Source: Faecousia sp. (lineage in GTDB: Bacteria > Bacillota > Clostridia > Oscillospirales > Oscillospiraceae). From it: a stretch of DNA of 56,134 bases. Location: positions 1-56,134 of the forward strand of contig JAZQWQ010000108.1 in NCBI GenBank assembly GCA_045632385.1, in the 5' to 3' direction. The position numbers and the translations under genes were made by a program. The first letter of the stretch is position 1. Each line of letters begins with the position of its first letter. Shown here in pieces: positions 1 to 2,396 of this stretch. Below the pieces are notes generated by a model. The model saw nothing but the letters and a program-made list of their open reading frames with translations, made no database searches and was not told where the DNA came from.

Positions 1-507
1 TCCCGTATCAACGGCTTCACCTATGTGAAGACCCAGTTCGACTACTACACCGGCGAGCTGAAGATCGTTGAGCGCATCCCCTACTCCAAGGGTGAGCGTG
101 CAGCAGTCAACTGCTACGGCTGTGACGATGTTCGTGAAGGCGTTGCTGTCATGCGTTACGAGGGCGTTGACGTTTCCATCACCGGTAACTCCACCAACCC
201 CACCCGCTTCCAGCATCCTGTCGCCGGCACCTACAAGAAGGAGTGCATGGAGACCGGTCGTAAGTACTTCTCCGTTGCTTCCGGCGGTGGCACCGGCCGT
301 ACCCTGCACCCCGACAACATGGCTGCAGGTCCTGCTTCCTACGGCATGACCGACACCATGGGCCGTATGCACGGTGACGCTCAGTTCGCTGGTTCTTCCT
401 CCGTCCCCGCCCACGTGGAAATGATGGGCTTCCTGGGCGCTGGTAACAACCCCATGGTCGGTATGACCGTTTCCGTGGCTGTTGCTGTTGAAGAGGCGCT
501 GAAGTAA
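1..507 (+). CDS. GGGtGRT protein (5'-truncated by window edge)
   Basis: Frame open from base 1 (SRINGFTYVKTQF...) to TAA at 505-507; contains the eponymous SGGGTGRTLHPDN motif; strong codon bias. Confidence 0.92.
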   Translation, partial: SRINGFTYVKTQFDYYTGELKIVERIPYSKGERAAVNCYGCDDVREGVAVMRYEGVDVSITGNSTNPTRFQHPVAGTYKKECMETGRKYFSVASGGGTGRTLHPDNMAAGPASYGMTDTMGRMHGDAQFAGSSSVPAHVEMMGFLGAGNNPMVGMTVSVAVAVEEALK

Positions 508-522
508 TTTCATAACAACATT

Positions 523-553
523 GAGGCTTCCGTTTCTACGGAGGCCTCTTTTT
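523..553 (+). terminator. Rho-independent terminator after GGGtGRT gene
   Basis: gaggcttccgt-ttct-acggaggcctc hairpin followed by T5. Confidence 0.85.
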
Positions 554-562
554 AACCTATGA

Positions 563-743
563 ACCATGGGGTTGCAAGGTAGCAAGCTGCTTTAGCAGCT
601 TGCAGATTTGAGTCGCTTCGCTCCCCCGTTTGCGGTGCCCGATAAAATCTTCAGGCTTACGCTTTCCTCGATTTTATCGACCGCTGCACTCACTAACCTC
701 GCTTATTCTGCCACAGGCAGCGCTCGGTCTCGTGACCCATGGT
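563..743. mobile_element. Multi-hairpin non-coding element (REP/MITE-like or integrative-element remnant)
   Basis: Stems 582-591/594-603, 632-636/680-684, 640-649/670-679 and 708-712/716-720; ends accatggg/cccatggt are inverted; lies between the duplicated gene ends. No transposase is present. Confidence 0.5.
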
Positions 744-803
744 CGGTATGACCGTTTCCGTGGCTGTTGCTGTTGAAGAGGCTTTGAAGTAATGTGATTC
801 CTT

Positions 804-836
804 AAAATCCCGGCTCGTTTGAGCCGGGATTTTTTT
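804..836 (+). terminator. Rho-independent terminator after the second copy of the gene end
   Basis: aaaatcccggctc-gttt-gagccgggatttt perfect stem with T-run. Confidence 0.88.
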
Positions 837-939: not shown

Positions 940-1665
940 ATGGATGCCATTAGGATTATTCAACTAACTAAGAAATATAAAGATACCACGGCGGTCGATT
1001 CTTTGAGCCTAAGCATTCAGCAAGGAGAAATTTTCGCCTTGTTGGGGGTAAACGGTGCAGGTAAAACTACAACGATTAAAATGCTTTCCGGACTGACAAA
1101 ACCAACTTCCGGTAATGCTTTTTTACTGGGAAACAGTATACTTTCAAATTCTGCCTCAGCAAAATCTATCCTCGCAGTTTCCCCCCAGGAAACTGCGATT
1201 GCACAAGGTCTTTCCGTTTTGGAAAATATGGAATTCATATGTGGCATATATCAATACGACAAAGAAAAGCGTAACGCAAAAATTTCTGAGATCACAAAAA
1301 CTTTTGGACTTGAAGCAGTCCTTCTGAAAAAGGCCGGAAAATTATCCGGCGGATGGCAACGGCGGCTGAGTCTTGCTATTGCCCTCATTTGCGATCCCAA
1401 AATTTTGTTTTTAGACGAACCAACATTGGGTTTGGATGTGATTGCCAGGAGTGAATTATGGGAGACGATTCGCTTACTCAAGGATAAAACAACGATCGTT
1501 TTGACAACACATTATATGGAAGAAGCGGAAGCACTTTCTGACCGCATAGGCATTCTGAAGGATGGGAAGCTTTTGATTTGTGGCACTGCTGCCGAAATCA
1601 AAAGTATCGCGCAAACAGATAATTTTGAGCAAGCTTTTCTTCGTATTGTGAAGGGGGTATCCTGA
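940..1665 (+). CDS. ABC transporter ATP-binding protein (multidrug/ABC-2 type)
   Basis: Walker A GVNGAGKTT, LSGG signature, ILFLDEPT Walker B, TTH switch; AAAGGAG RBS before ATG 940. Confidence 0.93.
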   Translation: MDAIRIIQLTKKYKDTTAVDSLSLSIQQGEIFALLGVNGAGKTTTIKMLSGLTKPTSGNAFLLGNSILSNSASAKSILAVSPQETAIAQGLSVLENMEFICGIYQYDKEKRNAKISEITKTFGLEAVLLKKAGKLSGGWQRRLSLAIALICDPKILFLDEPTLGLDVIARSELWETIRLLKDKTTIVLTTHYMEEAEALSDRIGILKDGKLLICGTAAEIKSIAQTDNFEQAFLRIVKGVS

Positions 1666-2396
1666 TGCGAATGTTAACCTTTGCAAACAGAAACACAAAG
1701 GAGATTCTAAGAGATCCTTTAAATTTAGGCTTTGGTCTTGGCTTTCCCGCAATACTAATGGTACTACTCAGCGCAATCCAGGCCAATATCCCGGCAAAGC
1801 TATTTGACATTGCATATTTAACCCCGGGCATTACCGTCTTCGGGCTGTCATTTTTAACGCTGTTCTCTGCAACAATCATTGCAAAAGACAGAAGCAGTTC
1901 CCTCTTGCAGCGGTTATACACGACCCCTTTAACATCTGCAGATTTCATTCTCGGTTATACGTTGCCTATCATTCCAATTGCTATGATACAATGCATCATT
2001 TGCTATATTCTCGCACTAGTACTGGGTCTGAATATGACAAGCAATATTCTCGTTGCAATTCTGTTTATTATTCCAATCTCCTTGCTCTACATTGGCATTG
2101 GTCTTCTTTGCGGAAGTGTCCTGAACGACAAACAAGTGGGCGGTATCTGCGGTGCGTTGCTTACAAATCTGTCTGCCTGGTTGTCAGGAATTTGGTTTGA
2201 CCTGGACCTGGTAGGCGGTACATTCAAAAAAATTGCATATCTCTTGCCATTTGTTCACGCAGTGGAAATGGAGCGAGCTATACTGGCTGGAAATTACGAT
2301 AATATCTTCCCCCATCTATACTGGGTGCTTGGATATGCCTCTGTATTGATAGCGGCTGCAATCCTGCTGTTCCTCCGTCAAATGAAAAAAGGATAA
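1665..2396 (+). CDS. ABC-2 transporter permease
   Basis: About six hydrophobic segments; TGATG coupling to the ATPase; RLYTTP and LLPFVHAVE ABC-2-like segments. Confidence 0.9.
   Translation: MRMLTFANRNTKEILRDPLNLGFGLGFPAILMVLLSAIQANIPAKLFDIAYLTPGITVFGLSFLTLFSATIIAKDRSSSLLQRLYTTPLTSADFILGYTLPIIPIAMIQCIICYILALVLGLNMTSNILVAILFIIPISLLYIGIGLLCGSVLNDKQVGGICGALLTNLSAWLSGIWFDLDLVGGTFKKIAYLLPFVHAVEMERAILAGNYDNIFPHLYWVLGYASVLIAAAILLFLRQMKKG

What the first reader, a model, noticed from the sequence alone, without database searches (positions are those of the whole stretch)
451..836. 285-bp mini-insertion that rebuilds the 3' end of a protein-coding gene
Seen: the last 58 bp of the GGGtGRT gene occur twice, 285 bp apart. 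The copies differ by two adjacent synonymous substitutions, and each is followed by its own unrelated strong terminator. The second copy is preceded by an in-frame TGA. Established: integrative elements that target gene 3' ends leave this attL/attR layout, supplying a replacement gene end and terminator. Inference: this is a minimal non-autonomous element or deletion scar whose only cargo is a terminator plus a structured segment, and GGGtGRT may be an unrecognised integration hotspot.
Basis: partly seen in the sequence, partly recalled or inferred. Interest (0 to 1): 0.72.

Follow-up and report, generated by a model that had tools for sequence, protein, structure and literature searches.

The report
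Hairpin mini-cassette that duplicates gene ends
The 285-base unit is one copy of a gene-less DNA hairpin cassette found behind the same gene in dozens of related gut bacteria, always starting at one fixed base and usually carrying a backwards copy of its landing site, and it likely inserts as folded single-stranded DNA rather than being a leftover of the phage-type islands that also use this gene's end.

Summary
Observation confirmed: 451-508 recurs at 736-793 (56/58), each copy followed by an unrelated terminator; contigs from independent runs bridge every junction. At 563-574 lies an inverted copy of the gene's own junction, then a conserved hairpin module and a 110-bp two-hairpin repeat (626-735). 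That repeat has 8 copies in this genome, mostly at tRNA/5S duplications, and occurs in 31 of 120 class genomes. The GGGtGRT end is a true integrase and phage hotspot, but the mini-cassette is a separate class: 38 of 38 extra copies starting at 450-452 lie under 1 kb away, whereas 14 of 15 starting further upstream lie 1.2-18 kb away (an island-sized distance). The cassette lacks the integrase core, so it is not simply a collapsed island. Best reading (0.5): a single-strand, copy-out/paste-in cassette whose inverted copy likely marks the cut site. No enzyme was identified; RAYT-like nucleases are a lead. The in-frame TGA is incidental. No paper was found. This scan had already noted the GGGtGRT hotspot and similar gene-end hairpin cassettes on other DNA.

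The parts
1..507 (+). 3' part of the GGGtGRT gene (open at the window start), the target gene
   Evidence: PF14057 E 7e-100; ORF list
442..450 (+). Upstream part of the site used by integrase islands and phages; present only in front of copy 1
   Evidence: Island and viral second copies begin at or upstream of here; absent before copy 2
451..508 (+). Gene end, copy 1 (the functional end); fixed breakpoint at 451, in front of a CC
523..553 (+). Terminator 1 (hairpin plus T run)
   Evidence: consensus scan
563..574 (-). Inverted copy of the target junction 447-458 (candidate guide); predicted to pair with it and loop out the gene end plus terminator
   Evidence: inverted repeat I6; pairing probability about 0.99 for most pairs on both strands; seen in 27 of 29 cassette loci
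575..611 (+). Conserved linker, 9-bp hairpin (582-603), linker module
   Evidence: compensatory arm variants across species
612..623 (.). 12-nt mini-hairpin, also found inside REP-like repeats elsewhere in this genome
626..735 (.). 110-bp two-hairpin repeat, inserted in front of a CC; member of a class-wide family
736..793 (+). Gene end, copy 2 (untranslated; inferred to be the displaced older end)
   Evidence: which copy is older is inferred, not shown
804..836 (+). Terminator 2; a related hairpin follows the gene at single-copy sites of relatives (L011, L192)

Best explanation
The 285-bp unit is a gene-less cassette (gene end, terminator, inverted copy of the target site, hairpin modules) that likely moves as folded single-stranded DNA and was likely pasted in at the fixed CC at 451, pushing the older gene end downstream. 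Shown: the fixed breakpoint, the inverted copy, the conserved covarying hairpins, tandem units, and the same layout at 5S rRNA and tRNA genes. Inferred: the inverted copy pairs with the junction (447-458 with 563-574) and so marks where a trans-acting single-strand nicking and joining enzyme cuts; an HUH/RAYT-type nuclease is my first candidate, a tyrosine recombinase acting on folded DNA the second. Copy-out from one CC to the next would give a circle or a tandem unit, and re-insertion at the gene-proximal CC would keep the reading frame intact. The 110-bp two-hairpin repeat is likely a second, independently mobile module that lands on the same CC.
For: Breakpoint classes: 38 of 38 extra copies starting at 450-452 lie 148-708 bp away; 14 of 15 starting at 444 or earlier lie 1.2-18 kb away; 56 same-contig pairs typed; Fisher p 6e-12, kin not independent. 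Inverted copy plus module in 27 of 29 cassette loci, at offsets 79-80 or 106-120 (one at 435). In G338 the gene has a CCG variant and the inverted copy changes with it (L150). Exact tandem units in G036 and G297. Same layout at 5S rRNA in this genome (C187, C146), each with its own target-specific inverted copy. Two-hairpin repeat: 94% of cells paired, 16 of 25 pairs compensatory, 0 of 500 shuffles as high, slid controls 31-53%. 792 Watson-Crick against 9 G-T and 12 A-C cells, and a TC/TC opposition in 27 of 34 that reads GA/GA on the minus strand; that this favours folded DNA is recalled knowledge. Unrelated terminators beside near-identical gene ends, with the same terminator types in either position (G175 has the reverse order), fit a unit that brings its own end. 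3 of 5 RAYT-like genes found lie within about 120-500 bp of the repeat or of a cassette.
Against: No enzyme is tied to it. None was found among 55 of 76 neighbouring ORFs scanned. No Y1, IS110 or GIY-YIG hit in this 66%-complete genome. No Y1 hit in 13 of 20 genomes picked from the multi-copy set, including 97-98% complete ones. The RAYT-like genes have their own GTAG repeats and score just under the family cut-off. In 8 of 29 loci the two post-stop regions are alike or identical, and copies within a genome are closer than between genomes (6.0 vs 9.0 differences in 51 nt, 28 of 29 loci), which local duplication also explains. In 150-bp variants the inverted copy is only 7-9 nt. No circle and no same-species empty allele was seen.
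Confidence: 0.5

Rival explanations
1. In-place duplication: a hairpin element lands at the foot of the terminator, and fold-back or template switching copies the host's own gene end and terminator. The inverted copy and first hairpin are the fossil fold-back, and the terminators diverged or were swapped later.
For: Identical or similar post-stop regions in 8 of 29 loci (G014, G307, also G165). Within-genome copies closer than between-genome copies. The module hairpin arm resembles the gene sequence just upstream of the junction over about 6 nt. At 5S sites the inverted copy folds straight back onto a target remnant.
Against: In the window the coding copies differ at 2 of 58 bases while spacer and terminator are unrelated, which drift alone does not give. 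The linker module is not templated by the target and is conserved across species.
Confidence: 0.27
2. Collapsed integrase island (CIME-like scar): a tyrosine-integrase island inserted at GGGtGRT, lost its genes, and the leftover site was later colonised by palindromic repeats.
For: Integrase islands and phages do use this gene end. Small ORF-bearing islets sit between gene-end copies in G289, G280, G268 and G127. CIMEs are described in PMC5704250 (passages).
Against: Mini copies start at 450-452 and lack the upstream core that island copies keep. The module is the same in 27 of 29 loci, and no two-hairpin repeat scored in the four islands searched. Islands have inserted upstream of minis and pushed them away intact (G078, G122, G161). 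The layout also occurs at 5S rRNA.
Confidence: 0.15
3. A host-maintained structured RNA or DNA signal (read-through control, transcript stability, or a decoy against phage integration) rather than a mobile unit.
For: Strong covariation; kept in at least 37 genomes of the genus; sits at highly expressed genes (expression is inferred).
Against: It lies behind a strong terminator, is patchy on a crude gene tree, forms tandem arrays, and lands in unrelated REP stems and in prophage DNA. No Rfam match at gathering level. Wobble pairs are nearly absent.
Confidence: 0.06
4. Assembly artefact or chance repeat.
For: The genome is fragmented (187 contigs, 66% complete), and no single contig of another run spans the whole unit.
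Against: Overlapping contigs from other runs bridge each junction, and the same layout occurs in dozens of other assemblies.
Confidence: 0.02

Closest known systems
CIMEs and tyrosine-integrase IMEs/prophages at gene 3' ends (PMC5704250, passages read)
   Same: Gene end duplicated, gene left intact, tandem accretion at one site; true integrase elements use this very gene end.
   Different: The mini-cassette starts downstream of the integrase core and lacks it, is 150-300 bp, and carries a target-inverted copy and conserved hairpins.
REP/BIME/REPIN with RAYT (TnpA-REP) nucleases (PMC3733652 and PMC6006769, passages read)
   Same: Multi-copy extragenic palindromes; shares a 12-nt mini-hairpin with REP-like repeats of this genome; RAYT-like genes occur nearby in some relatives.
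   Different: 110 bp with two branched hairpins, no GTAG/CGTC tag, and tied to long duplications of gene ends and an inverted target copy.
IS200/IS605 single-strand transposons, e.g. IS608 (PMC5934647, PMC3201880; search listing and abstract starts only)
   Same: Hairpin ends, a fixed short insertion motif, no classical target duplication; target chosen by DNA-DNA base pairing.
   Different: No TnpA gene; the candidate guide is 7-15 nt and target-specific; gene ends are duplicated.
ssr9/MITEPpu9 module of the IS110-family element ISPpu9 (PMC12288879, abstract and most of the Discussion read)
   Same: Gene-less structured module, core dinucleotide at both ends, lands in REP stems, forms tandems.
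   Different: The two-hairpin repeat has the same internal sequence at different targets, so it has no bridge-RNA-like target loops; no IS110 transposase was found in this genome.
Folded single-strand attachment sites of CTX phage and integron cassettes (recalled, no call)
   Same: An inverted copy of the site near the junction could rebuild a duplex site in single-stranded DNA.
   Different: No dif or attI site and no dedicated recombinase identified; the targets are diverse gene ends.

Membership tests
CIME / integrase att scar | Target gene end duplicated and gene left intact | tested here: met
CIME / integrase att scar | Both flanks keep the core used by the cognate integrase | tested here: not met
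   Copy 2 starts at 451; island and viral copies start at 444 or earlier
CIME / integrase att scar | Integrase-bearing elements at the same gene end in relatives | tested here: met
   PF00589 in G006, G043, G025 and a fragment in G022; integrase-like hits in 7 of 9 viral loci tested
CIME / integrase att scar | Excised by that integrase in trans | not testable with these tools
   needs an excision assay
MITE | Terminal inverted repeats | tested here: not met
   No inverted repeat joins the ends of 626-735; ends in 34 aligned copies are not complementary
MITE | Short fixed-length target duplication | tested here: inconclusive
   Only a CC is shared at both ends; the long duplications are of gene ends
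REP/BIME/REPIN | Multi-copy extragenic palindrome | tested here: met
   8 copies in this genome; 31 of 120 class genomes, this one included
REP/BIME/REPIN | 20-40 bp stem tagged by GTAG or CGTC | tested here: not met
   110 bp, two hairpins, no tag (definition from passages of PMC3733652)
REP/BIME/REPIN | Cognate RAYT gene flanked by the repeat | tested here: inconclusive
   3 of 5 RAYT-like loci are near the repeat or a cassette but carry their own GTAG repeats; none in this genome
IS200/IS605 non-autonomous derivative | Related autonomous element with the same ends around a TnpA gene | tested here: not met
   None of the 7 fetched loci with IS200-type or fragmentary Y1 hits carried the repeat; limited sample
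IS110 bridge-RNA module | Internal loops that vary with the target | tested here: not met
   Near-identical repeat sequence at GGGtGRT, tRNA-Leu, tRNA-Asn, tRNA-Pro and 5S targets
Known structured RNA family | Rfam match at gathering score | tested here: not met
   Only sub-threshold, mostly terminator-driven hits

The most novel reading that the evidence does not exclude
A natural DNA-guided insertion system of gut Clostridia: tiny single-strand cassettes that carry a 10-15 nt inverted copy of their target as a built-in guide, are cut and joined at a CC by a trans-acting nuclease, and have been re-programmed for many essential gene ends (GGGtGRT, 5S rRNA, several tRNAs) without breaking them.
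Probability: 0.25. Interest if true: 0.88.

Novelty: new variant of a known kind. Interest (0 to 1): 0.66.

Why it matters
It shows two different insertion routes at one conserved protein-coding gene end, nine bases apart or less: ordinary integrases, and a gene-less hairpin cassette with no described family. The cassette is common (at least 37 of 316 genomes of the genus that had a hit), and its two-hairpin module is spread across the class. If the inverted copy really guides insertion, this would be a natural, longer-guide counterpart of IS608-type DNA targeting and a testable route to programmable single-strand insertion. At the least it explains a frequent class of duplicated tRNA, 5S and gene ends that annotation would misread as integrase scars.

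Tried and rejected
Rfam scan of 400-950: nothing at gathering level. A pattern for the repeat joined to the gene end found 1 locus in genome contigs and 0 in metagenome contigs; the patterns were too strict. The repeat is rare in viral contigs (6 stretches), absent from the phage collection and seen in 1 plasmid record. No mobility gene recurs next to the repeat: of 55 ORFs scanned (of 76 listed), 2 were phage integrases and 1 a recombinase fragment. Which copy is older could not be told from codons: both variants occur in relatives (6 and 3 of 91). A tree of the upstream gene part (75 loci, sample enriched for multi-copy genomes, one row mis-extracted) shows scattered cassette types but is too crude to separate transfer from loss. 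No contig showing a 285-bp skip in 8 runs; this proves nothing about empty alleles. My first structure string was one column off and was corrected. The regex counts missed visible modules and are not used as frequencies. The 'protective TGA' idea was rejected (1 of 29). Paper searches that found nothing relevant: GGGtGRT (19 of 21 listed, titles and abstract starts only), repeat terms, exact motifs, Firmicutes integration sites. In PMC8040213 (passages and 8 supplementary files searched) two files were not searched and could hold this motif.

Full report
Observation. The window starts inside a GGGtGRT gene (PF14057) that stops at 507. Bases 451-508 recur at 736-793 with two adjacent synonymous differences. 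Terminator-like hairpins lie at 523-548 and 804-833, and the regions after the two stops are unrelated. Contigs of other sequencing runs bridge 462-652, 623-765 and 763-911 and 548-648, 780-960 and 804-952, so the layout is real, although no one contig spans it all.

Bases 563-574 are the reverse complement of 447-458, the gene's own junction. In single-stranded DNA they are predicted to pair on either strand and to loop out exactly the gene end plus terminator 1. Then come a linker, a 9-bp hairpin, a 12-nt mini-hairpin, and a 110-bp two-hairpin repeat (626-735) that abuts copy 2. The segment 549-736 folds better than all 200 shuffles (DNA z -3.9).

The gene end is an integration hotspot. Among relatives, G006, G043 and G025 carry a tyrosine integrase right after the stop and a second gene end 1.6-8 kb away; G022 has fragments and two extra ends. 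Of 22 viral-contig matches, 15 are orphan tails with unrelated DNA upstream, 5 have the gene upstream and 2 are at contig ends; by eye the 15 fall into about six groups of near-duplicates. 7 of 9 tested have an integrase-like gene nearby. Single-copy sites followed by one terminator and the conserved 599-aa neighbour exist in other species (L188, L200). None is the same species. My search for the gene name found no paper on this, but this scan noted the hotspot before.

The mini-cassette is a separate class. Of 401 genomes of the genus, 316 matched the gene end and, by my count of the table, 82 matched twice or more. I re-searched 60 of the 82 and typed the 56 same-contig pairs, leaving out matches on other contigs. 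All 38 extra copies that start at 450-452 lie 148-708 bp away, in 33 genomes. Of the 15 that start at 444 or earlier, 14 lie 1.2-18 kb away. Three start further downstream. With G000, G011, G014 and G036 that makes at least 37 genomes. In 29 loci printed in full the unit is gene end, optional terminator, inverted copy, linker, hairpin, mini-hairpin and optional two-hairpin repeat. The inverted copy is at a fixed offset in 27 of 29 and scores 7-14 against the junction, versus 4-8.5 for control windows; the two exceptions carry a small ORF instead. In G338 a synonymous change in the gene is mirrored in the inverted copy. G036 and G297 have exact tandem units. The 150-bp variants have no terminator and no two-hairpin repeat. 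The TGA before copy 2 occurs in 1 of 29.

The two-hairpin repeat is a family of its own. A script found 39 copies in fetched loci and this genome; 34 were aligned. The structure is supported by 16 of 25 compensatory pairs and 94% pairing, against 31-53% for slid controls. Pairs are almost purely Watson-Crick, and a TC/TC opposition in 27 of 34 reads GA/GA on the minus strand; I recall such tandem G-A pairs as typical of folded DNA. Hairpin self-correction can also produce compensatory changes without selection. A model finds 8 copies in this genome and matches in 31 of 120 class genomes, this one included; 20 of the 29 best loci hold a tRNA gene. It inserts in front of a CC in copies of tRNAs, 5S rRNA, REP-like stems and prophage DNA, and forms tandems. 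At C187 and C146 of this genome the window's layout is repeated at 5S rRNA: gene end, terminator, inverted target copy, repeat, second gene end, second terminator.

Mechanism. I favour a unit that is copied out from one CC to the next as folded single-stranded DNA and pasted back at the gene-proximal CC, with the inverted copy marking the site (0.5). That explains the fixed breakpoint, the tandems, and near-identical ends beside unrelated terminators. Against it: 8 of 29 loci have similar or identical post-stop regions, and copies are closer within than between genomes, so in-place duplication remains a serious rival (0.27). A collapsed integrase island is less likely (0.15) because the integrase core is missing and islands have been inserted upstream of intact minis. 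The enzyme is unknown. Neighbouring ORFs show no recurrent mobility gene, and this incomplete genome has no Y1, IS110 or GIY-YIG hit. In 20 genomes picked from the multi-copy set, 7 had a Y1 hit. Of five RAYT-like genes among them, two lie near a two-hairpin repeat and one beside a GGGtGRT cassette. They have their own GTAG repeats and may merely share hotspots, so this is a lead only.

Comparison and novelty. It works like a non-autonomous single-strand element (REPIN, IS200/IS605 derivative, folded attachment site) and looks like a CIME, but it fails a defining test for CIME, MITE, REP and IS110 bridge modules (membership table). Searches for the gene name, the motifs and the concept found no description; two supplementary files of PMC8040213 were not searched. 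Earlier notes of this scan describe similar gene-end hairpin cassettes in other bacteria and archaea, so the kind is recurrent but still without an enzyme. Verdict: real, a new variant of non-autonomous mobile DNA, interest 0.66; a DNA-guided system is possible (0.25).

Noticed in passing
window 940-2396: ABC ATPase plus ABC-2 permease pair (GC about 42%) lies between terminator 2 and the 599-aa gene that directly follows GGGtGRT in several relatives; none of the 44 other top-ranked loci printed showed it there. Possibly another cargo at this hotspot, without a third gene-end copy.
   Followed up: partly
L045, L121, L122, L150, L151, L160 (distal copies): The same multi-base change (reading VDLA instead of VSVA) recurs in distal copies of six scattered genomes and in none of 105 primary copies. 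It would let the copy fold on its own start, so it may be hairpin-templated. A 1-nt deletion at the same start recurs in L117, L141, L172 and L173.
   Followed up: partly
L243:1276-2932, L244:1234-2029, L054: RAYT-like genes with GTAG repeats sit at the 3' end of a gene I recognise from memory as spoIVB; the two-hairpin repeat precedes an orphan copy of that gene end. A likely second protein-coding target.
   Followed up: partly
L135, L139, L146, L151, L155: Small membrane-protein ORFs sit between GGGtGRT end copies (units of 300-700 bp), like single-gene cassettes; several look related to each other.
   Followed up: no
G000:C96:2988-3117 (L202), also L064: Two-hairpin repeat followed by an orphan gene end reading I-K-G-stop plus a terminator; the target gene was not identified.
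   Followed up: no
L044 (G026:C108), L079 (G038:C31), L135: Head-to-tail arrays of the two-hairpin repeat: 183-bp units beside a tRNA-Leu sequence, and spacer-less dimers joined at the CC.
   Followed up: partly
L109-L114: The repeat occurs inside prophage head and tail regions, twice on one viral contig.
   Followed up: no
L031:5784-6932: The 8-kb island of G006 carries a WYL/WCX regulator and a resolvase besides its integrase.
   Followed up: no
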